Source of the DNA: Nitrospirales bacterium
Lineage (GTDB): Bacteria; Nitrospirota; Nitrospiria; Nitrospirales; NS-4
Reading direction: 5' to 3'
Assembly: GCA_036005325.1 (NCBI GenBank)
Contig: DASYQR010000130.1
Span: 1-52,864, forward strand
DNA: 52,864 nt
Position 1 is the first letter of the stretch; every line of letters starts with the position of its first letter. The notes under the pieces were generated by a model. The model searched no databases. It had not been told where the DNA came from and was given only the letters and a program-made list of their open reading frames with translations. Below are positions 1-27,880 of this stretch, in pieces. Position numbers and translations under genes: made by a program.

Positions 1-161
1 CCTTCGCCGACCTTGGCCGGAAGGAGATGGGGATCGAAAGGCAGTTTTGCCTTCGGTGTCATCCAGGACTCCTGTTTTAGGCTCCTGTGGCACTATATGA
101 ATACCATGGGCGGGGATCGTTGTACAAGAAGGGGATATTGCAGCGGTTCTCCCTCGCTGTC

Positions 162-495: not shown

Positions 496-774
496 TTAAT
501 TCTTCTCTAAAATTTTCCCAGTTTGAGCGTCGACCTTAACTTTATAGGTTTTCTTCGCAGCGTCAACAATTTCAATCTTATACGTGATGCGCCCGTTTTC
601 CTTATCCATTTCGACTTCGTAGGGCTTGCCTCCCGGCACCGAGTCTACAGCTGTCTTGATGGCCTGTTCCATTGAAATCGTCGCTTCAAGCGCCATCTGC
701 TTGTCCGATTTTGCCCACGCATCGCTGAAGCACAGCCCGGAAACCAAGATCGCTATAGCCAGTACGTATCGCAT
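496..774 (-). CDS. Secreted PepSY-domain protein
   Basis: Signal peptide MRYVLAIAILVSGLCFSDAWA. PepSY-like core AIKTAVDSVPGGKPYEVEMDKENGRITYKIEIV..KVKVDAQTGKIL. AAGGAGG RBS. Confidence 0.8.
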   Translation of the reverse strand: MRYVLAIAILVSGLCFSDAWAKSDKQMALEATISMEQAIKTAVDSVPGGKPYEVEMDKENGRITYKIEIVDAAKKTYKVKVDAQTGKILEKN

Positions 775-843
775 AGGTCCTCCTTACATAACGTGAGATT
801 TTTGCCCAGTGACTCATATATCGATGGACGACGTTCGAGCGTG

Positions 844-886
844 AACCTAACAACTCCATCGTGTGTAGTCTGAGCAAAATTGCTCA
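844..886 (-). promoter_or_regulatory. Module copy G: palindromic 16-mer TGAGCAATTTTGCTCA, 21 nt, then TGTTAGGTT, reading toward the PepSY gene
   Basis: 16-mer at 871..886 with perfect dyad TGAGCAA/TTGCTCA. TAGGTT at 844..849 on the minus strand, preceded by TGT. 21-nt spacer. Confidence 0.55.
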
Positions 887-963
887 AGTCTTTAATTTTA
901 CTATGAAACCGTCGCGGCTTGACGGAGTTCGGGGTGAAGCTTCCACCGTCAGGGGCGGCCGGG

Positions 964-1006
964 TGAGCACTTTGGAACAGACGGGGCACCTCGACTCCGG
1001 TATACG
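964..1006 (+). promoter_or_regulatory. Module copy I: TGAGCACTTTGGAACA, 21 nt, then TATACG, reading toward the lipoprotein gene at 1054
   Basis: 16-mer at 964..979, 21-nt spacer, -10-like TATACG at 1001..1006 (no TG extension). Confidence 0.45.
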
Positions 1007-1053
1007 TCATGCAGGCATAAGCGCGCCGGAAATTGTAGCCATCACGAGGCTCT

Positions 1054-1509
1054 ATGAACAAGCCACCGATAACGATGAAAACTACGGGCCTCGTTGTGTG
1101 CCTTCTTGCGCTGGCGAGTTTGCTCGCAGGCTGCGCCGGCGCGCAGAAACCTCACGCGGCAGTCGCGCCCGCAATTGAAGGCGACCTCAGCAGCGAGTGG
1201 GAGATCCAAGACGAAGCCACGTTCGATACGATCACGTTGGATCGCTACGGAAACGGCGGATACAACTGGCAGAATGGCCGGATCGAGACGACAAGCTTTT
1301 CGGACGGCAAGTGGACCGGAAACTGGGTACAGCCGGGCAATGACCGGCAGGGCGGATTCGAGTTAGTGTTATCCCCCGATCGTTCACTCGCTCAGGGAAC
1401 GTGGTGGTACACGCGCATTCGCGAGAAGATCATCCCGCCCGGTGAGCCGGGAAAAGAGTTCAAGTTGAAACGGGTGCCGACAGAAACCACGACACGCCCC
1501 GCGTCTTAA
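1054..1509 (+). CDS. Lipoprotein, function unknown
   Basis: Signal peptide with lipobox LLAGC (..LLALASLLAGCAGAQ). GAGG RBS. No family recognised. Confidence 0.75.
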   Translation: MNKPPITMKTTGLVVCLLALASLLAGCAGAQKPHAAVAPAIEGDLSSEWEIQDEATFDTITLDRYGNGGYNWQNGRIETTSFSDGKWTGNWVQPGNDRQGGFELVLSPDRSLAQGTWWYTRIREKIIPPGEPGKEFKLKRVPTETTTRPAS

Positions 1510-1528
1510 GGTACGTCAGTTAATACGC

Positions 1529-1544
1529 TGTTCGCAATTGCTCA
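1529..1544 (-). promoter_or_regulatory. Module copy F (orphan): TGAGCAATTGCGAACA with no recognisable -10
   Basis: 16-mer matches the consensus at 15/16. It points into the 3' end of the plus-strand lipoprotein gene. Its upstream flank resembles that of copy D. Confidence 0.35.
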
Positions 1545-1645
1545 GAAGTCTTTGTACTCAGGGTTCGATGCCACCGCCGCCGGCCAGAGGGCGTCAGTGC
1601 CGGCCGATCCTCCCGGAGATCTCTCCGATCCTCGTGTCGCTCGGG

Positions 1646-1813
1646 TCAAGAGACTCGGGTAGAGCGTCCCGAGACCAGGTGAATCACCAGCAACACGATT
1701 CCGATCAGGAAGAGAATCCAAGAGATCTGGGAGGCGACGGCGGCGATTCCCGCCAATCCCAGGGCTCCTGCGACCAGTCCTACCAGCAAGAACACTAAGG
1801 CATAGTACAACAT
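1646..1813 (-). CDS. DUF1328 (UPF0391) small membrane protein, 55 aa; below the ORF-track cutoff
   Basis: Manual translation: MLYYALVFLLVGLVAGALGLAGIAAVASQISWILFLIGIVLLVIHLVSGRSTRVS. AAAGGAG RBS 7 nt upstream. The track's plus-strand ORF 1538..1798 is its shadow. Confidence 0.8.
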   Translation of the reverse strand: MLYYALVFLLVGLVAGALGLAGIAAVASQISWILFLIGIVLLVIHLVSGRSTRVS

Positions 1814-1859
1814 CTGAAGCTCCTTTCTGTTGAAGGCAACGACTTACAGTGAGGCGCTC

Positions 1860-1902
1860 ACCCTAACAGCTACCTCGGTTGTCGTCTGTTCACAATTGCT
1901 CA
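1860..1902 (-). promoter_or_regulatory. Module copy A: TGAGCAATTGTGAACA, 21 nt, then TGTTAGGGT, upstream of DUF1328
   Basis: 16-mer at 1887..1902, TAGGGT at 1860..1865 on the minus strand, 21-nt spacer. ATG lies about 40 nt after the predicted start site. Confidence 0.55.
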
Positions 1903-2109
1903 CGGTCTGTGAATTTATTAGAGTTTATTTCGTAAGGTGGTGATTTGGTTCGGTTTATATTTTTCATCAAAGCGGCTGACCTAATCCCCAGCTGTTGTAA
2001 CAGTCTGACTATTAGTCACAGCAGCCGATGCCTACTATAGACTCTGGACCAGTTAAAAGGGGACAGGTTAAGTCTGAGGTAGGCAGTCCAGCGGCGATGC
2101 CGAGCACGT

Positions 2110-2451
2110 TCAGGGCGGGCTGTAACCCAATCCCAGCGGGAACACCGTCGCCGGCTGCCGGCTGGCGGGGGCGGAACTGGCGTCTATCGCCGTGTGGTGT
2201 TGCTGGTCGTCCAGCCTGGCGTTGCGCCGCGCCGTTTCCAGGCGTGCGATCTGGTAAAACTTCTCTGCCTGTTCCGTATTTAATTCTCCTACCCCAACCA
2301 GCCTCACGAGCTCCAGATGGTACGCCTCCAGTTGCTGCTCCAGGGTCAAGACTCCTCTCTCAGTGGATGGATCATGTGGGGTTGCGGGAAGGTTCATGCA
2401 GCCGAAGAACGTGGAGACAACCAGTCCCAGGACTAGCGCGAGAAGCTGCAT
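2110..2451 (-). CDS. Lipoprotein, function unknown
   Basis: MQLLALVLGLVVSTFFGC lipobox-type signal. AGGGAG RBS. Confidence 0.7.
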   Translation of the reverse strand: MQLLALVLGLVVSTFFGCMNLPATPHDPSTERGVLTLEQQLEAYHLELVRLVGVGELNTEQAEKFYQIARLETARRNARLDDQQHHTAIDASSAPASRQPATVFPLGLGYSPP

Positions 2452-2492
2452 GTCGCGTTCTCCCTATTCAGAGTCAGAGCGTAGTTCAGCAT
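2433..2492 (-). other. 19-codon upstream ORF (MLNYALTLNRENATCSFSR) overlapping the lipoprotein start; looks like a relic of a DUF1328 5' end
   Basis: GAAGGGAGTTTCAGATGCTGAACTACGCTCTG closely parallels the DUF1328 start region GAAAGGAGCTTCAGATGTTGTACTATGCCTTA. Confidence 0.3.
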
Positions 2493-2557
2493 CTGAAACT
2501 CCCTTCTATGTCTAGTTAAGTATGCAAAGGCCCGGCCGATGAAATCGGCAACGCTCT

Positions 2558-2600
2558 AACCTAACAGTTACCTCGGTTGCCGTCTGTTCACAATTGCTCA
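2558..2600 (-). promoter_or_regulatory. Module copy B: TGAGCAATTGTGAACA, 21 nt, then TGTTAGGTT
   Basis: 16-mer at 2585..2600, TAGGTT at 2558..2563 on the minus strand, 21-nt spacer. Confidence 0.55.
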
Positions 2601-2634
2601 GAGCCTGTTAATTTATTGAGGGGCGGGGGCGGGT

Positions 2635-4137
2635 TCAACGGCCGGCGGGGGCGACGTCGCGCCACTCGACGGCGCCGAACCGGGTGTCGCCGAGGAAAAC
2701 GTAGGCGAGACTTATGGTTCCCACCGTCTGGTGCCGGTCGGGTATATCGGGATAGTGCGCATCCCGCGCTGACGCGATGTATTGGACCGAGAGGGCGTGG
2801 CGACCGTACACGCGGAGGGTGAACGACGCCGTCCCGCGGGCGATGGTTTCCGATCCACGGTTCTCAGTGGAGCCGACGCCGCTGACATAGTACTCTCGCC
2901 CCGTCACGTCGAGCATGGCCACGTCGCCGAGGATGAGGCGGAGCGCGAGGAGCCCCTGCGGGGTGGCGCCGTAGTGGTAGTCGCGTTCACCTGTGCCGTG
3001 GATCGAGCCGGCCGCGCCGTAGCCGACGCCGCCGAGAGCCGTGCCCTGGAGCGCGATTGCGTCCGAGAGCCACCACTGGGCGGTGGTACCGAGCGAGAGG
3101 GCCGTGCTCGAGACACGGAAGATCTGCGGAGCGATGTAGTCATAGCTCCCGTAGAGACCCCACACCCCGCGATAGGCATCGCCCGCCGCGTAGTCCGTTC
3201 CGAAGAGAAGGCCGCGGGTCATGATGTTCTCGAAGGTATTGGCGCTGGCGGCCCTGAATTGGAAATCGAAATAGTCGAATGGGCGCGTGTAGCTATAGCC
3301 GGGCTTCCCGGGGAGCCCGTAGGCAATGGAGAAATCTGCGGTCCCCTCATTCTGTCTGATGCCGCGCGAAACGTTCGGGGCGTGCGCTAGCGCGCTCAGG
3401 CTTGCGCCGAGCTCGAACCGCGCGAAGACGGCCGGGTCTCGGCTCGGGAACACGTCATCGAACCGGTTGCCGAAGACGAGGCGGTTGAAGCCGGTGGGCG
3501 GTGAGATCACCGCCGCGCCCAGTTCGCGCCAGAACCCGGGCGTGCCGCCGCCGCTCTCGAGCAACAGGCTGGCCATCCGGAAGAGCGGTTCGCCCAAGAA
3601 GCTGCCGCCGATCGGGGTCGAGATCTGGTCGTTGATGGAGGGCGGTCCGGTCTCGCCCCCCATCTCCCAGAGAAAGCTGCCGGCGGCGGCATACGCGAAC
3701 GACTCCCAGAAGTTGAGGCCGGCCGATCGCGCCAATCCGTAGTAGACGGACCCCCCATACGGATGTAGGAACTGGTTCGTGGCGAACGGGTCGCTGTCAA
3801 CCACCCACTTGGAATCGGTCAAGTTCTTCCAGAACGACTCGGTGCCAGTACGGTACACCTCCTTCGGCTCGACGAAGTGCCGGTCGAACTGATTGAGCAG
3901 GAAGAGGTACCCGATGACCTCGACCGCCGGGATGACGTAGCTCCTGCCGGCTCCCGTCTCCCAGGACAGAACGGTCTTCGGCACCTCAGAGCGGGCGGGC
4001 GCGGGAGCGGCCCCCGGCGTCATGGGTGCGGCAGCGGGCTCCTCGGCGAAGCCTGCACCTTGCGTTGCGAGGACGAGTGCGAAGACGCCGGCGAGGAGCG
4101 CCCAGTAAAGCCCACCGGTATGTCGGGATCCGCTCAC
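2635..4137 (-). CDS. Secreted / outer-membrane protein with a DUF3943-like N-terminal region and a beta-rich C-terminal part
   Basis: Signal peptide ..ALVLATQGAGFA. Region FATNQFLHPYGGSVYYGLARSAG..GSFLWEMGGETGPPSINDQISTPIGGSFLGEP recalled as DUF3943-like. Alternating Gly/aromatic C-terminal half. GTG start. Confidence 0.65.
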   Translation of the reverse strand: MSGSRHTGGLYWALLAGVFALVLATQGAGFAEEPAAAPMTPGAAPAPARSEVPKTVLSWETGAGRSYVIPAVEVIGYLFLLNQFDRHFVEPKEVYRTGTESFWKNLTDSKWVVDSDPFATNQFLHPYGGSVYYGLARSAGLNFWESFAYAAAGSFLWEMGGETGPPSINDQISTPIGGSFLGEPLFRMASLLLESGGGTPGFWRELGAAVISPPTGFNRLVFGNRFDDVFPSRDPAVFARFELGASLSALAHAPNVSRGIRQNEGTADFSIAYGLPGKPGYSYTRPFDYFDFQFRAASANTFENIMTRGLLFGTDYAAGDAYRGVWGLYGSYDYIAPQIFRVSSTALSLGTTAQWWLSDAIALQGTALGGVGYGAAGSIHGTGERDYHYGATPQGLLALRLILGDVAMLDVTGREYYVSGVGSTENRGSETIARGTASFTLRVYGRHALSVQYIASARDAHYPDIPDRHQTVGTISLAYVFLGDTRFGAVEWRDVAPAGR

Positions 4138-4212
4138 GATCCCAAACCGCTGTTTATCCCCACAAGCAGTTTCTCCTCCGGCTGAGCCGTTTTCCAGTGC
4201 ATAACGGCCGCA

Positions 4213-4241
4213 AGGCTAAACGACCCTTGGGGACCTGTCAA
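4213..4241 (-). promoter_or_regulatory. Sigma-70-like promoter TTGACA-N17-TAGCCT for the DUF3943 gene
   Basis: -35 at 4236..4241 and -10 at 4213..4218 on the minus strand, with exact 17-nt spacing. This gene lacks the 16-mer module. Confidence 0.45.
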
Positions 4242-4383
4242 GCGCGGCGTCGGTAGCAGAAGAAACGTGCGGGAAAACTCTAATGAGAGGCCTTTCGATC
4301 AACTCAGCGGCGCCGCACATCGCCTTGGGGATGCGGGCGCCGCCGCAGTTTACGCAGAATGGAAGGTCAAAACGAGAACCGAC

Positions 4384-4698
4384 CTATCCAACTTGAAGTG
4401 GGGCAGTATACTTCTTCATGGCGTCTTTGCCCGCTTCGAAGGCAGCGGTCAGGTCTGACTTCTTCTCTTTGATGAACTGCTTGCCCTGTTCGATGGTGGT
4501 ATCCAGCGTAGCCCTGACCTCTTTAGCCTTCTCCCGCATTTCTTCCTCGGCCTTCCCAGCGTAGGTCTTGAGCAGTTTCCTGGTTTCTGCCCCAGACTGA
4601 GGAGCCAGCAGCAATGCCGCTCCTATACCGATTACGGCCCCCGCTAAAAAGGCAAACCCCATCGACCCTGCCGAATATCCGTTGTCTTCTGCCGCCAT
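4384..4698 (-). CDS. YtxH-domain general-stress-type protein
   Basis: N-terminal TM segment FAFLAGAVIGIGAALLLAPQSG followed by a charged helical region (ETRKLLKTYAGKAEEEMREKAKE..), the typical YtxH layout. AAGGAGG RBS. Confidence 0.8.
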   Translation of the reverse strand: MAAEDNGYSAGSMGFAFLAGAVIGIGAALLLAPQSGAETRKLLKTYAGKAEEEMREKAKEVRATLDTTIEQGKQFIKEKKSDLTAAFEAGKDAMKKYTAPLQVG

Positions 4699-4800
4699 TG
4701 GATGACCCTCCTTTATTCCGTACTCATATGTGAGCGTGGACGTCTCATTAGTACCCTCTGCCCCTCGCCGTGCCGATGATGATGCCGACGTCGAGGCTCT

Positions 4801-4843
4801 AACCTAACAGCTCTACCGTGCGCTGTCTGGTCAACATTGCTCA
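4801..4843 (-). promoter_or_regulatory. Module copy C: TGAGCAATGTTGACCA, 21 nt, then TGTTAGGTT, upstream of ytxH-like gene
   Basis: 16-mer at 4828..4843, TAGGTT at 4801..4806 on the minus strand, 21-nt spacer. Confidence 0.5.
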
Positions 4844-4986
4844 GGTTTGACGATGATTGATGATTATGGATATGACCGCTTCTGAGCCATGCCCTAAGTA
4901 CTTCATATCGTTATCGTATGGCCTGCCAGAGCTTTTAATTCGCTTCCCTTAATCTCTGATTCTCTGCCCCTAAATAAATTTAGATG

Positions 4987-5029
4987 TGATCCATTTTGAA
5001 CAGACTACACATGATGTAGCTGTTAGATT
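4987..5029 (+). promoter_or_regulatory. Module copy E: TGATCCATTTTGAACA, 21 nt, then TGTTAGATT, upstream of the small-ORF operon
   Basis: 16-mer at 4987..5002, TAGATT at 5024..5029, 21-nt spacer. Divergent from copy C. Confidence 0.5.
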
Positions 5030-5077
5030 CGAGCATCGATAATAGGCCAACTGAAGGCTTTTCCTGGGAGGTCATTC

Positions 5078-5251
5078 ATGCTCGAGATTATTCAATCCGT
5101 CCATGTTCTCGCCGGCGTCTTCGTTCTTACCGCACTCGCGATCCTTCTCGTTTTCGGGTTCCGAGGTCTCTGCTGGCCCAAGGCGCTGCGGTCGAATGAC
5201 CGCCAAGCCTATCCACACTACGCCCAGTTACTACGTAAGATGCCGTTCTGA
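5078..5251 (+). CDS. Small membrane protein, 57 aa; not in the ORF track
   Basis: GGGAGG RBS 6 nt before the ATG. MLEIIQSVHVLAGVFVLTALAILLVFGFRGLCWPKALRSNDRQAYPHYAQLLRKMPF, one TM segment. Confidence 0.5.
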   Translation: MLEIIQSVHVLAGVFVLTALAILLVFGFRGLCWPKALRSNDRQAYPHYAQLLRKMPF

Positions 5252-5264
5252 CAGGAGGCCCCCC

Positions 5265-5489
5265 ATGAGCACGATGCTCATCGACGATATTGCCCATGAA
5301 ATGCTGGATCCACTGGTTGAGCAGGAGAATCTCCGGTTAGCCTGGAGGATGCGGTTTTTCGGATTTTCCCGCTGCCCGCTGACCCTCGCCCAGCACGCCC
5401 AACTACAAGCTACGTGCCTCCGAGTCCTTGGCCCACGCTGGCGGGAGGACATAGCGAAGGAGGAGCCATGGCACAGAAACAGACTGTAG
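5265..5489 (+). CDS. Hypothetical protein, 74 aa
   Basis: AGGAGG RBS before the ATG at 5265. This is the internal start of track ORF 5103..5489 (MSTMLIDDIAHEMLDPLVEQENL..). Confidence 0.5.
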   Translation: MSTMLIDDIAHEMLDPLVEQENLRLAWRMRFFGFSRCPLTLAQHAQLQATCLRVLGPRWREDIAKEEPWHRNRL

Positions 5490-5749
5490 CGGACCGTATC
5501 ATGGGAAAAACTTCCATGATGACCAGGATGGCCAGCGCGGAGGCGAGTGACGCCGGCCTGTGCCCCCGGTGCAGCGGATTCATGGTGCAGGAAAGGTTCG
5601 ATGACTTCCCCGGGGGGGTCGCCGGCCTGCCTTTCCAAGGAGTCCGATGTGTCAATTGCGGGGAGATTCTTGACCTTCTTATTCTGGAGCATCGCAACCA
5701 GAGACCGCAACCAGTGAACAACCGTCGGCGTTTCCACCAGCAACTCTGA
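5468..5749 (+). CDS. Small zinc-ribbon protein, 93 aa
   Basis: GGAGGAG RBS before the ATG at 5468. Two CxxC pairs (CPRCSG ... CVNCGE). Overlaps the previous ORF by 22 nt. Confidence 0.55.
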   Translation: MAQKQTVADRIMGKTSMMTRMASAEASDAGLCPRCSGFMVQERFDDFPGGVAGLPFQGVRCVNCGEILDLLILEHRNQRPQPVNNRRRFHQQL

Positions 5750-5843
5750 GGCGTAACTCCCGGAGCTGGTGCTCTACGCGATGTCATTTCGATGAGGCTT
5801 CAGTGCCCATCCTCTGATGGCCGTATCGAAAAGGAGGCTTGCC

Positions 5844-5987
5844 ATGACACCCAATGTACAAGATCTCCGGCTCTCCCTACTTGCGCATCTGCGAGATCCC
5901 ACGCAACGAAAGATGCCGTCAGACCGGATTCTGAAGTGGCTATTCGGTATGGTCTTTCTGTTCAACCTATTGTATTTCATCTCGTGA
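5844..5987 (+). CDS. Possible 47-aa tail-anchored membrane peptide
   Basis: AAGGAGG RBS 6 nt before the ATG. MTPNVQDLRLSLLAHLRDPTQRKMPSDRILKWLFGMVFLFNLLYFIS. Confidence 0.35.
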   Translation: MTPNVQDLRLSLLAHLRDPTQRKMPSDRILKWLFGMVFLFNLLYFIS

Positions 5988-6000
5988 GCAATAGTCACCA
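5985..6000 (+). promoter_or_regulatory. Module copy H (degenerate): TGAGCAATAGTCACCA followed by GACTACA, as in copies E and G
   Basis: Matches the consensus first half plus the GACTACA continuation. No -10 at +21. A perfect TATAAT lies at 6045..6050 instead. Confidence 0.3.
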
Positions 6001-6074
6001 GACTACAAAAGAGGCCGGCCGAGAGGCCATGAAGACGGAACGAATATAATTCCTTGCCAAGTTGAGGTATGCCG

Positions 6075-6410
6075 ATGAAACATCTTGCGACCGTAATGAC
6101 GGTGCTTGCGAGTATAGCCATCCAGATTGGCGTAGCTCACGCCGAACCGCCGAAGATTCAACCGCCATCCGTCCCGGAAACACGCGGACCTTCTTCGTCC
6201 GGGGAAATCGACGATTCGATTGCGAACCGATTGACGATCGGCATGTCCGACACGGAAGTCTTAACGCTCGCCGGACCGCCCAAATCTCCTAAGGAGGGAA
6301 ACCTTTCCTCTGCGTCACGCTGGACGTATGTGGTCCGCGATCAAGTGATGGAACTCAGTTTCGGATCTGGTCGTATTGTCGAGATTAAGTGGTTTCCATT
6401 AAAACCCTGA
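6075..6410 (+). CDS. Secreted protein with a BamE/SmpA-OmlA-like region
   Basis: Signal peptide MKHLATVMTVLASIAIQIGVAHA. RLTIGMSDTEVLTLAGPP..WTYVV..ELSFGSGRIVEIKW resembles the SmpA_OmlA fold pattern. GAGG RBS favours the ATG at 6075. Confidence 0.55.
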   Translation: MKHLATVMTVLASIAIQIGVAHAEPPKIQPPSVPETRGPSSSGEIDDSIANRLTIGMSDTEVLTLAGPPKSPKEGNLSSASRWTYVVRDQVMELSFGSGRIVEIKWFPLKP

Positions 6411-7618
6411 ACGGTTTGCCACGTGACGTGAACTCTGAACTGCAGAGTACCCCGGCCGGTTCCGTAGGAGAGCCCCCTCCCACGGAAGGGACGTCGTCGC
6501 CGGACCCTACCCAACTCACCGTCCGCATACCGGTGAGCGCGCGAGGCCTGGCACTTGCCATTTTGGCCACCGTTGCCGTGGTATTTGCGCTGCAGTGGGC
6601 GGAGAAGTTTTTCATACCGCTCCTGCTCGGCATCATCATGGCATACACCCTCAATCCCTTCGTTGTTTGGCTGGAGCGCATTAAGATCCCTCGCCTGGTG
6701 GGTACCACCATTGTGATGATTGCCCTCCTGTGCGCGGCCGCCTTTACGACGATGTCGCTGCGCGGCCAGGTGCAGACGATACTCGAGCAGTTGCCCGAAG
6801 CGACGAACAAAATTTCTGCAACGCTCCTCGCCATGCGGAAGGGTCAGCCCACCACCATGCAGAAAGTGCAAGCCGCCGCGCGCGAGATCGATAAGGCGAC
6901 AAGCCAGGCGGCGGATGCCCATGCGACGCCCAAACAGACTGCGACCCACGTCGTCGTTGACCGGCCCGCGTTCAATCTGGGCGACTTCTTGTGGGCGGGT
7001 TCCATGGGGGCTTTAGCATTCATCAGCCAAGCCACTATGGTGCTTATCTTGGTCTTCTTCCTCTTGCTGGCTGGTGACACGTTCAAACGTAAGCTGGTGC
7101 GCTTGACCGGCCCATCGCTGTCGAACAAGAAAATCACGGTGCAAATCTTGGACGACATCAACGTATCCATCCAGCGCTATATGTTTACGCTGCTGGTGGC
7201 CAACGTGCTCCTGGCACTCCTTACCTGGACCGCGTTCCGCTGGATCGGTCTGGAAAATGCAGGCGCATGGGCGGTCGCTGCGGGTTTACTGCATGTCATT
7301 CCTTACTTCGGGCCCGTTCTTATCGCAGTAGCTACGGGAATGGCGGGCTTTTTGCAATTCGAGTCGCCCTGGATGGCGCTGTTGGTGTCGGGCAGCTCGC
7401 TGGCGATTGCCACCTTCGTCGGCATGTTTGTCATCACATGGATGACCGGCAAGATCGCACAAATGAATGCAGCGGCGGTGTTTATCGCGTTGCTCTTCTT
7501 GGGATGGCTATGGGGGGTATGGGGCCTGTTGCTCGCTATTCCCATCATTGGCATGGTGAAGGTCGTCTCCCAGCATATAGAAGAACTCCAGCCCTTGGCT
7601 GAGTTGCTGGGAGAATGA
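6389..7618 (+). CDS. AI-2E family (PerM/UPF0118) transporter
   Basis: Multi-TM protein with the LHVIPYFGPVL motif region typical of AI-2E transporters. Start uncertain; it overlaps the upstream gene. Confidence 0.85.
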   Translation: MVSIKTLNGLPRDVNSELQSTPAGSVGEPPPTEGTSSPDPTQLTVRIPVSARGLALAILATVAVVFALQWAEKFFIPLLLGIIMAYTLNPFVVWLERIKIPRLVGTTIVMIALLCAAAFTTMSLRGQVQTILEQLPEATNKISATLLAMRKGQPTTMQKVQAAAREIDKATSQAADAHATPKQTATHVVVDRPAFNLGDFLWAGSMGALAFISQATMVLILVFFLLLAGDTFKRKLVRLTGPSLSNKKITVQILDDINVSIQRYMFTLLVANVLLALLTWTAFRWIGLENAGAWAVAAGLLHVIPYFGPVLIAVATGMAGFLQFESPWMALLVSGSSLAIATFVGMFVITWMTGKIAQMNAAAVFIALLFLGWLWGVWGLLLAIPIIGMVKVVSQHIEELQPLAELLGE

Positions 7619-7656
7619 AGGCGTACTGCTTTACGAGGGGTAGGCCCAAAGTCGCA

Positions 7657-8064
7657 TTATTTTGTGAACGTCTTGTCATGCACAGACTTACGGTAATTGG
7701 ATAGTTCCTTCGTGAGCCAATCTGCGTTTGATGTTGGGGGATGATCAGCGCATCGCACCCAGTAAGGTCGGCCGCTTACACTACTTTTTGAGGCAGCCAG
7801 CTCGATAAACTCCTCGGGTGTCTTAATGTCGTACCTGAAGAAGTCATACTTCGACTGTAGATGTTTCGCAGCCTCTTCGGAATTGTATTCTTTGTCATTT
7901 CTTGTAAAGACACAACCGGACTTTTCTACATACCGTAACAGATGATCAATGGTATGCAGATAAGCGTCATCAGCTGGTGATGCAACTGCAGATGACACCA
8001 AGAGCATTCCGAGAAGGCTCAAGTATACGAGATACTTTCGTATTCGATAATATTCTTTTCCCAT
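7657..8064 (-). CDS. DUF5329-like secreted protein
   Basis: Signal peptide. IDHLLRYVEKSGCVFTRNDKEYNSEEAAKHL..FIELAASKSSVSGRPYWVRC matches my recollection of the DUF5329 pattern. GC is markedly low. Confidence 0.6.
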   Translation of the reverse strand: MGKEYYRIRKYLVYLSLLGMLLVSSAVASPADDAYLHTIDHLLRYVEKSGCVFTRNDKEYNSEEAAKHLQSKYDFFRYDIKTPEEFIELAASKSSVSGRPYWVRCADHPPTSNADWLTKELSNYRKSVHDKTFTK

Positions 8065-8116
8065 CAGTTGACCTGCCCCGAATTATTGTACCGCCTTTCC
8101 CCCTCTGCCATGCCGC

Positions 8117-8160
8117 AGCGTACCAGCTACAAACGGGTGGCGGCTGTTCACAATTGCTCG
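8117..8160 (-). promoter_or_regulatory. Module copy D: CGAGCAATTGTGAACA, 22 nt, then TGGTACGCT, upstream of DUF5329 and directly downstream of the crp/fnr-like gene
   Basis: 16-mer at 8145..8160, TACGCT at 8117..8122 on the minus strand preceded by TGG, 22-nt spacer. Confidence 0.5.
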
Positions 8161-8208: not shown

Positions 8209-8874
8209 TTAGTCGTGGAGGACGATATTCATGAGGGAACTGTGAACGTGCAAGCCGTTTTTCAAGCCGCCGTTGTAGCTGATCAGGCCCAGTTTGCGAA
8301 ACTTGTTCATGAAAAAGCTGACTCGTGAGCGCGTCGTGCCGATGATCTCCGCCAGCGTTTCCTGGCTGATCTTCGCAATCACCGGCTCCGGTTTGCCTTC
8401 CTTCCCGAAGTTGGCCAGCAGGAGCAGCACCCGCGCCAGTCGCTTCTCGCTGGAGTTGAAGAGCTGATCCACCAGGTCCTCCTCAAGCCGGATGTTGCGG
8501 GAAAGCAGATGGGCGAGCAACAGCTCGGAAAAGGTGGGCTCGTTGTGGAGCACCCGGATCATGTTTTGTTTCTCCAGCCGCACGATCTCGCACGCGGACA
8601 TGGCGGTGGCGGTGGCCATGCGCACCGGCCGGCCCGAGAGGCAGCTCTCGCCAAAGAAGTCGTCGGTCCCTAAAATGCCGACGACCGCTTCTTTGCCCTG
8701 TTTGGAGACGACCGTGAGCTTGACCTTGCCTTTTTGGATATAAAAGATGGCGTCGGCCGGGTCACCTTGGGAGAAAACCTTCTGGTTCTTCCGGTAGTCG
8801 GCAATCGTCCTTCCTTCGCCGACCTTGGTCAGAAAGACCTGGGGATCGAATGGCGGTTTGTTATTCGTTTTCAT
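8209..8874 (-). CDS. Crp/Fnr-family transcriptional regulator (cNMP-binding domain plus C-terminal HTH)
   Basis: FSQGDPADAIFYIQKGKVKLTVVSKQGKEAVVGIL..FFGE effector domain. HTH ISQETLAEIIGTTRSRVSFFMNKFRKLGLI. AGGAGA RBS supports the ATG at 8874 (MKTNNKPP). Confidence 0.85.
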   Translation of the reverse strand: MKTNNKPPFDPQVFLTKVGEGRTIADYRKNQKVFSQGDPADAIFYIQKGKVKLTVVSKQGKEAVVGILGTDDFFGESCLSGRPVRMATATAMSACEIVRLEKQNMIRVLHNEPTFSELLLAHLLSRNIRLEEDLVDQLFNSSEKRLARVLLLLANFGKEGKPEPVIAKISQETLAEIIGTTRSRVSFFMNKFRKLGLISYNGGLKNGLHVHSSLMNIVLHD

Positions 8875-23087: not shown

Positions 23088-24854
23088 ATGGCCGAGATGA
23101 AAAAGACGCCGGGTCGGCTGAGTTCGATTCGTAACACCGTCAAGAAGCTGACCGGCCTGTCCGAGGGTCAGTCGGCAGAGGGCAACATGAAAGACGAGCA
23201 GGAGAGAGAAAAGGAAAAGCTCCTGGTGCAGATTCGCTCGTTGGAGGAAGAGGTGCGTCGCCTCCATCAGGCGCGACACCAACTCGAGCAGACGAATCGG
23301 CAGAACGATCGACTCACCGAGGCTCTGCAGGACGCCAAGACCCAGATCGAGGCGATGCGGGCCGAGGTGGAAAAGCTTACGGCCCCGCCGTCTACCTATG
23401 GCATCTTTTCCAGTGCCAATAAAGATCAGACAGTCAACGTCTACGTCACCGGACGGAAGCTGAAAGTCAATCTCCATCCGACCATCAACCTCAAGACCCT
23501 CCGGAAGGGCCAAGAAGTCATCCTGAACGAGGCCCTGAACGTCATCGAAGCCTGCGGCTTTGACGTGCAAGGCGAGGTGGTCCGCTTGAAGGATACGCTG
23601 GACGAGAGACGGGCAACCATCACGCTGCGTACCGATGAAGAGCGAGTGGCCGAGCTGGCCGAACCGCTCCTGGCCCAGAAGCTCAGCGTCGGGGATCATC
23701 TACTCTTCGATGCGCGCTCGGGCTACCTGCTGGAAAAACTGCCGAAGTCGGAAGTCGAAGAGCTGGTCCTGGAAGAAGTCCCGGACGTCAAATACACCGA
23801 CATCGGCGGCCTGCGCGATCAGATCGAGCAGATCCAAGACGCCGTGGAGCTGCCGTTCCTCCATGCCGACTTGTTCAAAGAGCACAAGCTGCGGGCGCCG
23901 AAAGGGGTCCTGCTGTACGGCCCTCCGGGCTGCGGCAAAACCTTGATCGCCAAGGCCGTCGCCAACTCGATCGCCAAGAAGCTTGGACACTTGACCGGCA
24001 AGGACATTCGCAGCTTTTTCCTTCACGTCAAGGGGCCCGAACTCCTGAACAAATACGTGGGCGAGTCGGAACGCCAGGTTCGCGAGGTCTTCAAGAAGGC
24101 GAAAGAGAAGGCGGATGACGGTTACCCGGTGATCGTCTTCTTCGATGAGATGGACGCCCTCTTCCGTACCCGCGGCAGCGGCATCTCGTCCGACATCGAG
24201 TCCACGATCGTACCGCAGTTTCTCTCGGAGATTGACGGCGTCGAGCGGCTGAACAACGTCATCGTGATCGGCGCCAGCAACCGGCAGGACCTCATCGACC
24301 CGGCTGTCCTGCGGCCAGGCCGCCTGGACGTCAAGATCAAGATCGACCGGCCGGATAAGTCTGCGGCTCGGGACATATTCTCCAAGTACCTGACGTCGGA
24401 CCTGCCGTGGCATCCGGAAGAGCTCGAGCGGGACGGCGGGGATGTCGCCAAGGTCGTCGAGCGGCTGATCGGGGTGACCGTGGAGTCCATGTACGCGCTC
24501 AGCGAGGAGAACCAGTACCTTGAAGTGACTTACGCCAACGGGGACAAGGAGATGTTCTACATGAAGGACTTCTCCAGCGGAGCTCTGATCGAAGGTATCG
24601 TCTCGCGCGCCAAAAAATATGCCATCAAGCGGTTACTTAAGACCGACGAGCGGGGCCTCAAGACCGACGATTTGCTTCGCGCCATCCGGGATGAGTTCAA
24701 GGAACACGAAGACCTGCCCAACACGACCAACCCCGACGACTGGGCGAAGATCGCCGGCAAGAAAGCAGATAAGATCGTCCACGTGCGGACGATCACGGTC
24801 GGCTCCCACGAATCGCGTCGGATCGAGACCGTCACCACCGGCCACTATCTCTGA
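23088..24854 (+). CDS. mpa: Proteasome-associated AAA ATPase Mpa/ARC
   Basis: N-terminal coiled coil, OB region, GPPGCGKT Walker A, C-terminal GHYL (compare the GQYL docking motif). Confidence 0.93.
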
Positions 24855-24885
24855 CGCGATCCACCATGCCCAGGAAGATCAACGC

Positions 24886-26367
24886 ATGACGACCAAGCGA
24901 GCCATCGGTAGTGAGACGGAGTTCGGGATCGCCACCCGCGACCCGGAGTCCGTGGACCCCGTGTCCAATTCTCTCTTTCTGATCAATCACTACCCGAATT
25001 TCCCCTCGCCCAAGATCCTCTGGGATTACGAAAACGAGAACCCCCTGCTGGATATCCGCGGCTTTGAAGTCGAAGGGGAACGGGAGCGGCCTGGACCGGA
25101 CTACAATCGGTTGCTGAATAAGGTGCTGGCCAACGGTGGCCGTCTCTATGTGGACGGGGCGCATCCGGAATACTCGACGCCGGAGTGTACGACGGCCCGG
25201 GATGTCGTGCTGTACGAAAAGGCCGGCGAGCGCATCCTCGCCGCTGCCTTGCGTGCGGTGGAGCAGGTGCGGGGAGCCGGGAGCCTGCTCGTCTACAAGA
25301 ACAACACGGACGGAAAGGGCAACAGTTACGGCTATCACGAGAACTACCTCGTGGCCCGCGATGTTCCCTTCGAACGCGTCGCGCGCGCCCTTGTGCCGTT
25401 TCTGGTGACTCGGCAGATCTTCGCGGGCGCCGGCAAGGTCGGAGCGGAGAATCAATCGGCGCCGGCTGTCTATCAGCTCTCGCAGCGGGCCGACTTCTTC
25501 GAGACGCTGATGGACCTCAATACGATGGTGAAACGGCCGATCATCAACACGCGAGACGAGCCGCATGCCGATCCTGCCCGGTACCGCCGGCTTCACGTCA
25601 TTGCCGGAGATGTCAACATGGCGGAGTGCGCGACCTTCCTCAAGGTGGGCACGATGGCTATCGTGCTGGATCTGATCGAAGAGAACTGGGCGCTCCCGGC
25701 GGTCGATCTGGACGACCCCGTGCAGGCGATCAAGGCAGTCTCGCGCGATCTGGAGGTGAAGGCCGAGCTGCGGCTGGCCGGAGGCAAGACCACGACGGCC
25801 ATCGCTGTGCAGCGCGTCTATCTCAAGGCGGCGCAGGATTTTTACGCGAGCCATGAGCTGACCCTTCCGGTGAAGGAAGTTCTGATCCGCTGGGAAGAGA
25901 CCCTGGACAAGCTGGAGCGCGATCCCCGCGAGCTCGTCCGTGAGTTGGACTGGGTGGCCAAGCGGGCCCTGATCGAGTCGTATCTGGACCGCAAGGGCTG
26001 CGGCTGGGAGGATCCGCGTGTGGCGATGATGGATCTGCAGTACCACGATGTCCGTCCGGAGAAGGGGCTGTACTTTACACTCGAACGCGCCAACCAAGTG
26101 GAGCGTATCGTGATGGATGAAGAGGTCCAGAAGGCGGAGACCGTTGCGCCGCTCGATACTCGCGCGTACTTCCGTGCGGCATGCGTGAAGAAATGGCCAC
26201 AGGAAGTCTACGCCGCCAGTTGGACGTCGGTGCTCTTCGACATCGGCAATGCAACGATTAAAAAAGTTCCCCTGATGGAGCCGCTGCGCGGCACCGAGGC
26301 CCTCACCAAAAGTCTGCTGGACGAATCCGAGACGGTCGATGCCTTGTTGGACAAATTAAAGGCCTGA
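24886..26367 (+). CDS. dop: Pup deamidase/depupylase Dop
   Basis: Start trimmed to MTTKRAIGSETEFGI. YQLSQRADFFE..RPIINTRDEPHADPARYRRLHVIAGD. At 493 aa it is longer than its paralog, and it sits directly after mpa. Confidence 0.85.
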   Translation: MTTKRAIGSETEFGIATRDPESVDPVSNSLFLINHYPNFPSPKILWDYENENPLLDIRGFEVEGERERPGPDYNRLLNKVLANGGRLYVDGAHPEYSTPECTTARDVVLYEKAGERILAAALRAVEQVRGAGSLLVYKNNTDGKGNSYGYHENYLVARDVPFERVARALVPFLVTRQIFAGAGKVGAENQSAPAVYQLSQRADFFETLMDLNTMVKRPIINTRDEPHADPARYRRLHVIAGDVNMAECATFLKVGTMAIVLDLIEENWALPAVDLDDPVQAIKAVSRDLEVKAELRLAGGKTTTAIAVQRVYLKAAQDFYASHELTLPVKEVLIRWEETLDKLERDPRELVRELDWVAKRALIESYLDRKGCGWEDPRVAMMDLQYHDVRPEKGLYFTLERANQVERIVMDEEVQKAETVAPLDTRAYFRAACVKKWPQEVYAASWTSVLFDIGNATIKKVPLMEPLRGTEALTKSLLDESETVDALLDKLKA

Positions 26368-26372
26368 CGGCG

Positions 26373-27190: not shown

Positions 27191-27880
27191 ATGGCGCTCC
27201 CTTATTACGTGTCCCCCGAGCAAATGATGGCCGACAAGGCCGAGTATGCCAAGAAGGGCATCGCCAAGGGCCGTTCGATTATCGCGATGGAATTCACGGA
27301 AGGTGTGTTGTTGGTGGCGGACAATCCCAGCGCGTCGCTGCACAAGATTTCCGAGATGTACGACCGGATCGCGTTTTCAGGCGCCGGCAAGTACAATGAG
27401 TTCGAGATGCTCCGCAAGGCGGGCATCCGGCACGCCGATCTCAAAGGGTACACATACAGCCGGGAGGATGTGACGGCGAAATCGCTGGCCAACGCCTATT
27501 CGCAATCCATCGGAAGCCTCTTCAGTGTCGAGCCGAAGCCGCTCGAAGTGGAGCTGCTGGTCGTCGAGGTGGGCCAGGGAGAGAAGCCCAGCGAAATCTA
27601 CCGGATCTCCTTCGACGGGAGTATTATTGATGAACGGGGTGTGGCAGTGATCGGCGGGAAGTCCGAGGCGTTGATGACGTTCCTGAAAAACCGGTGGAAG
27701 GCCCCGACCGTCTCATTGCGGGATGCGTTGAAGCTGAGCGTTGAGGCCTTGGAGACCGTGACAAACCAGAAACTGGGGCCGGAGGTGCTCGAGGTGGCGG
27801 TGCTGGACCGCACCAAGCCCGGGCGCACCTTTCGCCGGATCGCCTCCGCAGAAGCGAGATCGCTCTTGAATTCGCCATGA
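27191..27880 (+). CDS. prcA: Proteasome alpha subunit PrcA
   Basis: YYVSPEQMMADKAEYAKKGIAKGRS.. is a typical bacterial alpha-subunit N-terminus. 2-nt gap after prcB. Confidence 0.93.
   Translation: MALPYYVSPEQMMADKAEYAKKGIAKGRSIIAMEFTEGVLLVADNPSASLHKISEMYDRIAFSGAGKYNEFEMLRKAGIRHADLKGYTYSREDVTAKSLANAYSQSIGSLFSVEPKPLEVELLVVEVGQGEKPSEIYRISFDGSIIDERGVAVIGGKSEALMTFLKNRWKAPTVSLRDALKLSVEALETVTNQKLGPEVLEVAVLDRTKPGRTFRRIASAEARSLLNSP

What the first reader, a model, noticed from the sequence alone, without database searches (positions are those of the whole stretch)
844..8160. Nine copies of one 16-bp dyad plus extended -10 module: a compact regulon abutting a Crp/Fnr-family regulator
**Seen in sequence.**
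- A 16-mer occurs nine times in 7.3 kb and nowhere else in the other 44 kb that I could find. Consensus is TGAGCAATTGTGAACA, laid out as TGAGC-N6-GAACA.
- Gene-sense copies: I TGAGCACTTTGGAACA, G TGAGCAATTTTGCTCA, F TGAGCAATTGCGAACA, A and B TGAGCAATTGTGAACA, C TGAGCAATGTTGACCA, E TGATCCATTTTGAACA, H TGAGCAATAGTCACCA, D CGAGCAATTGTGAACA.
- In six copies, exactly 21 nt (22 in D) downstream lies an extended -10: TGTTAGGTT, TGTTAGGGT, TGTTAGATT or TGGTACGCT. Copy I has TATACG without the TG.
- Each copy is oriented toward the adjacent gene start, 40-100 nt away.
- Several copies also share an upstream AAATTCACAGAC-like stretch.

**Established knowledge.** CRP/FNR-family dimers bind 5-N6-5 dyads. 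They activate Class II promoters from sites centred at -41.5, typically at promoters that lack a good -35.

**Inference.**
- If the TAnnnT hexamer is at -12..-7, the 16-mer spans -49..-34, so its centre is at -41.5.
- The only regulator gene in the island (8209..8874) ends 49 nt from copy D.
- I therefore propose that this regulator controls the set through a recognition sequence different from the CRP (TGTGA) or FNR (TTGAT) half-sites.
Basis: partly seen in the sequence, partly recalled or inferred. Interest (0 to 1): 0.75.

Follow-up and report, generated by a model that had tools for sequence, protein, structure and literature searches.

The report
Stress-gene promoters sharing a Crp-type operator
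Nine promoters in a 7-kb Nitrospira gene island carry the same 16-bp docking site for a previously undescribed branch of the CRP/FNR regulator family, and the same regulator-plus-site pair recurs across at least five bacterial phyla.

Summary
The 16-mer occurs nine times in 871..8160 (0.17 expected by chance) and nowhere else in the window. A scoring matrix built only from other genomes picks out exactly these nine.

- The adjacent Crp/Fnr gene (8209..8874) belongs to a large, highly conserved subfamily found in Nitrospirota, Acidobacteriota, Alphaproteobacteria, Methylomirabilota and Rokubacteria.
- Around 80 orthologues, the motif is about 30-fold enriched and densest within 300 bp of the regulator gene.
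- Of 120 metagenome stretches chosen by the DNA motif alone, 29% carry the regulator.
- Across phyla a TAnnnT -10 hexamer lies 21-22 bp after the site. That places the site centre at -41.5/-42.5, the Class II activator geometry.
- The DNA-recognition helix (GTTRSRVSFFMNKF) is nearly invariant, as is the site.
- cAMP-contact and FNR cysteine features are absent.

Target genes are small envelope and stress proteins, response regulators and the regulator itself.

Corrections to the finding:
- Copy F faces no gene.
- Copy H lacks the -10 at this spacing.
- A second paralogue, cut by the contig end, sits at 1..62.

Binding, transcription start sites and the activating signal are untested. I found no prior description. 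I class it as a new member of a known kind.

The parts
844..886 (-). Promoter module G. The 16-mer TGAGCAATTTTGCTCA (871-886) is a perfect dyad. It is followed by GAC, a 21-nt spacer and TGT+TAGGTT (-10 at 844-849). It drives the PepSY gene 496..774.
   Evidence: (29.7 bits); Pfam
964..1006 (+). Promoter module I. The 16-mer is TGAGCACTTTGGAACA (964-979) and the weak -10 is TATACG (1001-1006). It drives the lipoprotein-like gene 1054..1509.
   Evidence: 23.7 bits
1529..1544 (-). Copy F, TGAGCAATTGCGAACA, lies in a convergent 3'-3' gap. It has no -10 at offset 21/22 and no downstream gene. It shares 58 nt (83%) with the flank of copy D. It is probably a duplicated relic, or possibly an antisense promoter.
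   Evidence: 21.3 bits; family D4
1860..1902 (-). Promoter module A. The 16-mer matches the consensus (1887-1902) and is followed by TGT+TAGGGT (-10 at 1860-1865). It drives the DUF1328 gene 1646..1813.
   Evidence: 32.3 bits
2558..2600 (-). Promoter module B. The 16-mer matches the consensus (2585-2600) and is followed by TGT+TAGGTT (-10 at 2558-2563). It is a duplicate of module A and is followed by a 5' remnant of a DUF1328 gene. It drives 2110..2451.
   Evidence: 32.3 bits; D2, 90%
4801..4843 (-). Promoter module C. The 16-mer is TGAGCAATGTTGACCA (4828-4843), followed by TGT+TAGGTT (-10 at 4801-4806). It drives the YtxH gene 4384..4698. DUF3943 (2635..4137) lies downstream, and whether it is co-transcribed is unknown.
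   Evidence: 25.5 bits
4987..5029 (+). Promoter module E. The 16-mer is TGATCCATTTTGAACA (4987-5002), followed by TGT+TAGATT (-10 at 5024-5029). It drives a small-gene operon: 5078..5251 (membrane protein), 5265..5489, 5468..5749 (zinc-ribbon protein) and 5844..5987.
   Evidence: 25.7 bits. In L201 the orthologue of 5078..5251 sits behind a variant site.
5985..6000 (+). Copy H, TGAGCAATAGTCACCA, overlaps the stop codon of 5817..5987. It lies upstream of the BamE-like gene 6075..6410 and the AI-2E transporter 6389..7618. It has no -10 at offset 21/22; a TATAAT is at 6045-6050.
   Evidence: 22.1 bits. AI-2E orthologues in L203 and L172 have canonical sites.
8117..8160 (-). Promoter module D. The 16-mer is CGAGCAATTGTGAACA (8145-8160), followed by TGG+TACGCT (-10 at 8117-8122, spacer 22). 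It lies 48 nt after the regulator's stop codon and drives the DUF5329 gene 7657..8064.
   Evidence: 21.7 bits. The same layout occurs in 20 of 21 cases in other genomes.
8209..8874 (-). Crp/Fnr-family regulator of 221 aa, with cNMP_binding and HTH_Crp_2 domains and the recognition helix GTTRSRVSFFMNKF. It is the proposed binder of the 16-mer.
1..62 (-). First 20 codons of a second paralogue of the same regulator subfamily, cut by the contig end. Its DNA is 80% identical to 8813-8892.
   Evidence: D3

Best explanation
The region is a clustered regulon. Seven or eight sigma-70-type promoters have no usable -35 hexamer; only GAC at about -33..-31 is kept. Each carries a 16-bp dyad, TG(A/T)GCAAT-N2-TTGNNCA, centred at -41.5 (-42.5 in D).

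A dimer of the Crp/Fnr-subfamily protein encoded at 8209..8874 binds this dyad through its helix-turn-helix (recognition helix TTRSRVSF). The paralogue at the left contig edge probably binds it too. The bound dimer recruits RNA polymerase in the way CRP and FNR do at Class II promoters. An extended -10 (TGnTAnnnT in Nitrospira) and an A/T-rich tract at about -60 help.

The better half-site (TGAGCA) always lies away from the promoter. The half-site next to the promoter is relaxed because it overlaps the -35 region.

The genes switched on encode small envelope and general-stress-type proteins: PepSY, DUF1328, YtxH, a BamE-like protein, an AI-2E transporter, DUF5329 and zinc-ribbon peptides. The effector is unlikely to be cAMP. 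The protein may also be controlled through its own abundance, because sites upstream of its own gene are common in other genomes.

Shown: the sites, their spacing, their cross-phylum conservation, their two-way linkage to the regulator gene, and the protein's fold and signatures.
Inferred: binding, activation, start sites and the signal.
For: - Nine sites against 0.17 expected. A matrix built from other genomes finds exactly these nine.
- 126 sites in 1.32 Mb around 80 orthologues from at least five phyla. 71 of 80 loci have a site of 16 bits or more.
- Site density peaks within 300 bp of the regulator gene. 20 of 21 sites after the stop codon are co-oriented with the gene. 8 sites lie upstream of the regulator and point into it.
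- 29% of motif-selected metagenome stretches (mean length 4.9 kb) carry the regulator.
- TAnnnT lies at offset 21 (31 sites) or 22 (17 sites), against 0-3 elsewhere. G and A are conserved at -33/-32.
- Sites are preferentially intergenic: the median open frame spanning a site is 132 codons, against 337 at random positions.
- A standard -35/-10 scan finds none of these promoters.
- The recognition helix is nearly invariant in 90 family members and in at least 100 of the 150 best 50%-cluster representatives.
- The protein has the CRP fold: AlphaFold2 pLDDT 82.5, and the top Foldseek hits are CAP, GlxR and NtcA.
- Orthologous targets keep the site: the AI-2E gene in L203 and L172, the zinc-ribbon gene in L037, and the orthologue of 5078..5251 in L201.
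Against: - There is no binding, start-site or expression data.
- Copies F and H do not fit the Class II geometry, and I has a poor -10.
- Only 48 of 134 sites have a strict TAnnnT at 21/22.
- Several YtxH and DUF1328 orthologues in other loci show no site within 450 nt, so the regulon's membership is fluid or these genes sit inside operons.
- Co-localisation cannot by itself exclude that the Crp gene is only a frequent target of some other factor.
- Choosing each site's orientation by best match to an asymmetric consensus inflates the apparent asymmetry of the half-sites.
Confidence: 0.75

Rival explanations
1. The same regulator binds the same sites but acts mainly as a repressor. The dimer sits over the -35 region and blocks RNA polymerase until a signal releases it.
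For: The site overlaps -49..-34, where binding could occlude the polymerase. CRP/FNR proteins can repress, which is established knowledge for FNR and for FixK2 autoregulation. Sites upstream of the regulator's own gene are frequent, which would fit negative autoregulation.
Against: The promoters lack a -35 hexamer, so they would be weak without help. The exact 21/22-nt phasing to the -10 is conserved across phyla. Such phasing is the hallmark of face-of-helix contacts in activation and is not needed for simple occlusion.
Confidence: 0.1
2. The 16-mer is recognised by a different factor, either another transcription factor or an alternative sigma factor. The Crp-family gene is then only a frequent member or neighbour of that factor's regulon.
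For: The linkage is correlative. The regulator gene itself often lies behind a site (8 of 116 downstream ORFs). Response regulators are the most common neighbouring targets.
Against: The site is a 16-bp dyad with TG-N12-CA ends, which is the CRP-family architecture. Perfect palindromes (TGAGCAATTTTGCTCA) recur, which argues against a sigma factor. Most linked response regulators are receiver-only and have no DNA-binding domain. The -10 is of the housekeeping type with an extended TG. The near-invariance of the helix-turn-helix parallels the near-invariance of the site. No other DNA-binding protein is encoded in the island.
Confidence: 0.08
3. The copies are a dispersed repeat (REP- or MITE-like) or simply the products of local duplication, with no regulatory role.
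For: A/B and D/F share 56-58-nt modules at 83-90% identity. Module B carries a remnant of the gene start of module A, so local duplication did happen. G is flagged as hairpin-like.
Against: Across phyla only the 19-nt site and the -10 are conserved, not the flanks. Sites are intergenic, oriented toward genes and phased to a -10. No terminal inverted repeats or target-site duplications were seen. The motif is tied to one regulator family in both directions.
Confidence: 0.02

Closest known systems
E. coli CRP (CAP) at Class II promoters such as galP1
   Same: Same two-domain fold (Foldseek probability 1.0). The site is a 16-bp 5-N6-5 dyad with the outer TG...CA and G at position 4 shared. The site centre is at -41.5, the -35 is poor, and an extended -10 is often present. 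An A/T tract lies upstream where the polymerase alpha-CTD docks (established knowledge).
   Different: Only 27% identity. The half-site is TGAGC/TGTGC rather than TGTGA. Of the base-contacting residues R180, E181 and R185, only R180 is kept (here R-S-R-V-S-F). cAMP contacts S83, T127 and S128 are replaced by M, L and E. The NCBIfam CRP score is 67.9 against a cut-off of 266.
FNR / FixK / Dnr-type regulators
   Same: Same superfamily. They also activate from sites at -41.5. The hinge motif is related (SEKRLA here, compare ERLA).
   Different: There is no N-terminal cysteine cluster; the first Cys is residue 78. The box is TTGAT-N4-ATCAA rather than this motif. NCBIfam scores for Fnr and FixK are 28-34 against cut-offs of 228-300.
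Mycobacterium tuberculosis CRP (Rv3676) and Thermus thermophilus CAP (PDB 3h3u, 4ev0)
   Same: These are the nearest solved structures by sequence (E 1.8e-19) and by fold (E 1e-16, TM 0.67).
   Different: Identity is about 25-30%. Both are cAMP-binding proteins with the RE(T)V recognition helix and TGTGA-type sites.
Thermus thermophilus SdrP (recalled from memory, not tested here)
   Same: A CRP-family activator that needs no cyclic nucleotide, rises in stationary phase and switches on stress-type genes. It is a functional analogy for what this regulon may do.
   Different: It has a different operator (CRP-like TGTG...CACA) and is a different lineage. No sequence comparison was run here.
General stress regulons driven by sigma factors (sigma-B, RpoS, EcfG)
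   Same: The target families overlap: CsbD, YtxH, YflT, Transgly_assoc (YeaQ/YmgE), BON, DUF1328, ferritin-like proteins, and single-domain response regulators with HWE/HisKA_2 kinases.
   Different: Control here goes through an activator site at housekeeping-type promoters, not through an alternative sigma factor's -35/-10.

Membership tests
CRP/FNR superfamily | N-terminal cyclic-nucleotide-binding-type beta-barrel domain (PF00027) | tested here: met
   E 6.7e-21, residues 26-110.
CRP/FNR superfamily | C-terminal Crp-type helix-turn-helix (PF13545) | tested here: met
   E 5.3e-11, residues 144-202.
CRP/FNR superfamily | CAP-like overall fold with a long central helix | tested here: met
   AlphaFold2 pLDDT 82.5, helix 113-153; the top 50 Foldseek hits are all CAP, GlxR, Mtb CRP, NtcA or Vfr, probability 1.0.
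CRP/FNR superfamily | A dimer binds a 14-16-bp dyad | not testable with these tools
   Only indirect evidence. The site is a 16-bp dyad (perfect in copy G) and is linked to the gene in both directions.
CRP sensu stricto (cAMP receptor protein) | Score above the curated equivalog cut-off | tested here: not met
   67.9 bits against a cut-off of 266.
CRP sensu stricto (cAMP receptor protein) | cAMP-contacting residues E72, R82, S83, T127, S128 | tested here: not met
   E and R are kept in this protein, but S83 is M, T127 is L and S128 is E. The Arg is Y in some family members.
CRP sensu stricto (cAMP receptor protein) | Recognition residues R180/E181/R185 and a TGTGA half-site | tested here: not met
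   R, S and F at these positions. The half-site is TGAGC/TGTGC.
FNR-type oxygen sensors | N-terminal Cys cluster for an iron-sulfur centre | tested here: not met
   There is no Cys before residue 78 (translation). C78 is not conserved at 90% or more in the wider family.
FNR-type oxygen sensors | TTGAT-N4-ATCAA box | tested here: not met
   The site consensus is TGAGCAATTtTGaaCA.
NtcA | Score above the curated equivalog cut-off; GTA-N8-TAC site | tested here: not met
   66.4 bits against 244.95. The motif differs.
Class II activator-dependent promoter | Activator site centred near -41.5, overlapping the -35 region | tested here: met
   Measured from the -10 hexamer. Offset is 21 nt in G, I, A, B, C and E and 22 nt in D. 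48 of 134 sites across phyla are at 21/22, against 0-3 elsewhere. Start sites are not mapped.
Class II activator-dependent promoter | No functional -35 hexamer | tested here: met
   the consensus scan finds none of the module promoters. Only G and A (and often C) at -33..-31 are conserved.
Class II activator-dependent promoter | Transcription depends on the bound activator | not testable with these tools
   This needs reporter, in vitro transcription or deletion data.
Dispersed repeat / MITE / REP element | A whole unit with terminal repeats is conserved and scattered without regard to genes | tested here: not met
   only 19 nt plus the -10 are conserved across genomes. Sites are intergenic, oriented to genes and confined to one island here.

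The most novel reading that the evidence does not exclude
This Crp/Fnr subfamily may be the master activator of a general-stress or dormancy-type regulon in phyla where no such regulator is known (Nitrospirota, Acidobacteriota, Methylomirabilota). It would have spread between phyla as a portable regulator-plus-operator module and would respond to a signal other than cAMP. In Nitrospiraceae it may be wired to a neighbouring KaiC-KaiB-kinase-response-regulator cluster.
Probability: 0.35. Interest if true: 0.75.

Novelty: new member of a known kind. Interest (0 to 1): 0.6.

Why it matters
Very few regulator-operator pairs are known for Nitrospira, which are key nitrite oxidisers, or for Acidobacteriota, a dominant soil phylum, because genetics in these organisms is hard.

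Here a single 16-19-nt matrix and an almost invariant recognition helix define a regulon that can be read directly from genomes and metagenomes in at least five phyla. The regulator also occurs in tractable hosts (Bradyrhizobium, Rhodomicrobium, Ancylobacter), so the prediction can be tested.

The target genes belong to the families that sigma-B, RpoS or EcfG control elsewhere. This may therefore be a way of building a stress response with an activator rather than with a sigma factor.

For annotation, it separates a large group from the catch-all label 'Crp/Fnr family transcriptional regulator'. That group comprises 1423 clusters at 50% identity with E of 1e-30 or better.

Tried and rejected
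- First AlphaFold2 run on a 12-sequence alignment gave pLDDT 50.8 and was unusable. A 51-sequence alignment gave 82.5.
- Rfam and tRNA scans of the window found nothing.
- The consensus sigma-70 promoter scan did not find the module promoters. I take this as evidence of a missing -35, not of missing promoters.
- Seven literature searches found no description of the motif or the subfamily. They used motif strings and combinations of Crp/Fnr with Nitrospira, Acidobacteria, CsbD and general stress. The one relevant paper (PMC8510549) only transfers known FNR, NnrR and CRP matrices to Nitrospira.
- The TTGACC-like part of the site could be a -35. Rejected, because the spacer to the -10 would be 22 nt.
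- An alternative sigma factor could recognise the site. Rejected because of the dyad symmetry and the housekeeping-type -10.
- The conserved Cys78/Cys95 could form a redox switch. Dropped, because C78 falls below 90% conservation in the wider family and C95 aligns with a Cys in E. coli CRP.
- Mobile element hypothesis: rejected (see the rival explanations).
- Footprinting of YtxH and DUF1328 orthologues gave mixed results.

Full report
**1. The observation**

The window is a complete 52,864-bp contig with 60.5% G+C. A search for TGAGCAATTGTGAACA with up to three mismatches gives nine matches, all between 871 and 8160. Dinucleotide-preserving shuffles give a mean of 0.17 and never more than one.

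Read in gene sense, the copies are longer than 16 nt. The 16-mer is followed by GAC in seven of nine copies. In G, A, B, C and E a further 15 nt lead to TGTTAG(G/A)(G/T)T. This places a TAnnnT hexamer 21 nt after the 16-mer. Copy D has TGGTACGCT at 22 nt. Copy I has TATACG at 21 nt. The repeat finder recovers the same modules without being given the motif.

I built a 19-nt scoring matrix only from sites in other genomes. It scores the nine copies at 21-32 bits. The next best position in the window scores 13.9 bits and is the opposite strand of palindromic copy G. Twenty shuffles peak at 6-17.5 bits. The count of nine, and the absence from the remaining 44 kb, are therefore solid.

**2. Surroundings**

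Gene calls and Pfam show that eight of the nine copies lie 68-133 nt upstream of a start codon with a Shine-Dalgarno sequence.

| Copy | Gene(s) downstream |
|---|---|
| G | PepSY (496..774) |
| I | lipoprotein-like protein (1054..1509) |
| A | DUF1328 (1646..1813) |
| B | 113-aa protein (2110..2451) |
| C | YtxH (4384..4698) |
| E | operon of small proteins including a zinc-ribbon protein (5078..5987) |
| H | BamE-like protein and AI-2E transporter (6075..7618) |
| D | DUF5329 (7657..8064) |

Copy F is the exception. It lies in a convergent 3'-3' gap, 19 nt from the stop codon of 1054..1509, with no -10 at the usual spacing. It shares 58 nt (83%) with the flank of D, so it looks like a duplicated relic.

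Copy H overlaps the stop codon of the preceding ORF. Its only good -10 (TATAAT, 6045-6050) is 44 nt away.

The gene at 8209..8874 has cNMP_binding and HTH_Crp_2 domains.

Window 1..62 on the minus strand encodes MTPKAKLPFDPHLLPAKVGE. Its DNA is 80% identical to the start of that regulator gene. The island is therefore bracketed by two paralogues, one of them truncated by the contig end.

The rest of the window is housekeeping: ffh, a CtpB-like protease, GroEL, Mpa, Dop/PafA, Lon, BamA and MsbA. The island has lower G+C, 0.535-0.575 against 0.60-0.65 elsewhere.

**3. Related sequences: from regulator to motif**

The regulator's closest relatives (75-92% identity) come from Nitrospirae/Nitrospirales assemblies.

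A scan of species-representative genomes found at least 559 loci encoding relatives. The best 80 have 60-77% identity. They come from Acidobacteriota, Alphaproteobacteria (including Bradyrhizobium, Rhodomicrobium and Ancylobacter), Nitrospirales, Methylomirabilis and Rokubacteria, plus one bin labelled Planctomycetota.

- In the 1.32 Mb around these genes the 16-mer (up to 3 mismatches) occurs 126 times, where about 4 are expected.
- With the matrix at 16 bits or more, 71 of 80 loci have a site.
- Density is 7.05 per 10 kb within 300 bp of the regulator gene. It is 1.0-1.6 between 0.3 and 4 kb, and 0.2-0.3 between 6 and 10 kb. No site lies inside the gene.
- Of 21 sites just after the regulator's stop codon, 20 point away from it. 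This is exactly the layout of copy D.
- Eight further sites lie upstream of the regulator and point into it, which suggests autoregulation.
- One Nitrospiraceae locus (L024) has 13 sites in 20 kb, an island like the one here.

**4. Related sequences: from motif to regulator**

I scanned metagenome contigs with the DNA pattern alone: TGAGCAATTNTGANCAGAY, then 18-19 nt, then TANNNT. Thirty-five of them (29%) encode a family member at 45-81% identity. This includes 9 of the 29 stretches shorter than 2 kb. A given regulator family would be expected by chance in well under 1% of such stretches; this figure is my own estimate.

**5. Geometry**

I aligned 134 sites, nine of them from the window. The -10 was not used to select them.

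- TAnnnT occurs at offset 21 in 31 sites and at offset 22 in 17 sites. It occurs 0-3 times at every other offset and on the opposite side.
- A at -11 and T at -7 are present in 63% and 60% of sites.
- Positions +17/+18 after the start of the site are G (112/134) and A (76/134). With the hexamer at -12..-7 these are -33/-32, which corresponds to the GA(C) of a TTGACA hexamer.

The site therefore spans -49..-34 with its centre at -41.5 (or -42.5). The -35 is vestigial. In line with this, a consensus -35/-10 scan finds none of these promoters.

Sites are preferentially intergenic. The longest open frame spanning a site has a median of 132 codons, against 337 at random positions.

The promoter-distal half (TGAGCA) is nearly invariant. 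The promoter-proximal half is TGNNCA. Perfect palindromes (TGAGCAATTTTGCTCA) recur in several phyla. Position 3 can be T: the closest syntenic orthologue (L201, ffh-DUF4321-Crp) has TGTGCAGTTTTGCACA with TAGGCT at offset 22. That site lies in front of the orthologue of window gene 5078..5251.

In Nitrospira an AT(A/C)AATT tract lies 9 nt upstream of the site, at about -65..-59. This is where the alpha-CTD docks at Class II promoters. That placement is established knowledge about Class II promoters; applying it here is my inference.

**6. The protein**

- The recognition helix GTTRSRVSFFMNKFRKLG and the hinge LFNSSEKRLAR are nearly invariant in 90 family members from the fetched loci.
- An exhaustive search finds 1423 cluster representatives (50% identity) at E of 1e-30 or better. 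At least 100 of the best 150 keep GTTR[SPA]R[VI][SN].
- The nearest solved structures are M. tuberculosis CRP by sequence (E 1.8e-19) and T. thermophilus CAP by fold (E 1.1e-16). The latter comparison used a model with pLDDT 82.5.
- Against E. coli CRP the identity is 27%. Of the DNA-contacting residues R180, E181 and R185, only the first is kept. cAMP contacts S83, T127 and S128 are M, L and E.
- There is no cysteine before residue 78, so no FNR-type cluster is possible.
- All NCBIfam hits (CRP, NtcA, YeiL, Fnr, FixK) are far below their cut-offs.

This is a distinct subfamily, and cAMP is an unlikely effector.

**7. What is regulated**

I ran Pfam on 116 ORFs downstream of sites near regulators and on 114 ORFs downstream of motif-selected sites.

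- The most frequent are receiver-domain response regulators (10 and 15).
- Next come the regulator itself (8 and 4) and HisKA_2/HATPase kinases with PAS domains.
- Also present: Ysc84, B12-radical-SAM enzymes, Transgly_assoc, CsbD, YflT, PRC-barrel, Band_7, ferritin-like, DUF3309 and Ice_binding/Big_5 proteins.
- AI-2E transporters recur next to the regulator in Nitrospira and Bradyrhizobium. In two Nitrospira-type loci (L203, L172) the transporter gene sits behind a canonical site.

Together with the window's PepSY, DUF1328, YtxH and BamE-like genes, this resembles the gene families of the sigma-B, RpoS and EcfG stress regulons. That resemblance is an inference and not a tested function.

**8. 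Mechanism and rivals**

The best-supported reading is Class II activation by this Crp-family dimer (confidence 0.75).

- A repressor role for the same protein (0.10) is disfavoured by the missing -35 and the strict helical phasing.
- A different binding factor (0.08) is disfavoured by the CRP-type dyad, the housekeeping -10, the lack of any other DNA-binding gene in the island, and the matching invariance of helix and site.
- A repeat element (0.02) is excluded by the lack of flank conservation across genomes. Local duplication did shape this island, however. A and B share 90% over 58 nt, and B is followed by a 5' remnant of the DUF1328 gene. D and F are also duplicates.

**9. Novelty**

Seven full-text searches found no description of the motif or the subfamily. 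One study of CRP/FNR regulators in a Nitrospira-containing community only applies known matrices (PMC8510549). The searchable library excludes much subscription literature and curated regulon databases, so a prior computational prediction cannot be ruled out.

The kind of system is well known: a CRP/FNR activator acting at Class II promoters. The new elements are the subfamily, its operator and its cross-phylum regulon. I therefore class it as a new member of a known kind, with interest 0.6.

Noticed in passing
window 1-62 (-), compare 8813-8892: The contig begins inside a second gene of the same Crp/Fnr subfamily. Its N-terminus is MTPKAKLPFDPHLLPAKVGE and its DNA is 80% identical over 80 nt to the start of the 8209..8874 gene. 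Two paralogues therefore bracket the island. Tandem or nearby paralogues are also seen in 11 of the 80 related loci.
   Followed up: partly
window 2436-2492 (-): After promoter B there is a short frame, ATGCTGAACTACGCTCTGACTCTGAATAGG... It mirrors the start of the DUF1328 gene behind promoter A (ATGTTGTACTATGCCTTAGTG) and has the same ribosome-binding region. It is a 5' remnant left by duplication of promoter plus gene start, and it overlaps the start of 2110..2451.
   Followed up: partly
window 1527-1584 and 8143-8200: Copies F and D share 58 nt (83%), including a GC-rich hairpin (GCCGCCGACGGCGGC in D) and GAACCCTGA upstream of the site. In D this flank follows the regulator's stop codon. In F it follows the DUF1328 gene. 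F faces the 3' end of a convergent gene and could at most drive an antisense RNA.
   Followed up: partly
L203 3751-6246; L204; L075 1455-5263; L184 2899-6377; L115: In Nitrospiraceae relatives the regulator and its sites sit next to a cluster of KaiC, KaiB, a HisKA_3 kinase and a response regulator with a GerE domain. In L184 a site drives the response-regulator gene. No Kai genes are in this window (tblastn).
   Followed up: partly
window A, B (about 9 nt upstream of the 16-mers); L203 7144 and 8988; L024; L037; L073: Sites from Nitrospira lineages share an AT(A/C)AATT tract ending 9 nt before the 16-mer, followed by CA(N)AGAC. This repeats the CAGAC that follows the site 21 bp later. It may be an alpha-CTD/UP-like element or a second protein contact. 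It is not conserved in other phyla.
   Followed up: partly
window 5468-5749 (+); L037 13234-13518; L041 11742-12026; L045, L074, L077: Small zinc-ribbon proteins (CxxC...CxxC) recur as genes directly behind sites in both Nitrospirales and Acidobacteriota. Their function is unknown.
   Followed up: no
window 5985-6050: The TGA of copy H is the stop codon of ORF 5817..5987. It is followed by a GGCCGGCC...GGCC hairpin and a perfect TATAAT at 6045-6050. That would put the site centre near -64.5, out of phase with both Class I and Class II positions.
   Followed up: no
window 1-9000 compared with 10000-52864: The island has lower G+C (0.535-0.575; 0.63 only over the DUF3943 gene) than the housekeeping remainder (0.60-0.65). 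In the closest syntenic relative (L201) the regulator is followed directly by the orthologue of 5078..5251 and then uvrB. The island is therefore a lineage-specific expansion.
   Followed up: partly
window 23088-29253: A bacterial proteasome/pupylation cluster is present: the Mpa/ARC ATPase at 23088..24854 and two Pup-ligase family genes at 24619..26367 and 27877..29253. It sits among ordinary housekeeping genes (ffh, GroEL, Lon, BamA, MsbA). It is unrelated to the finding.
   Followed up: no
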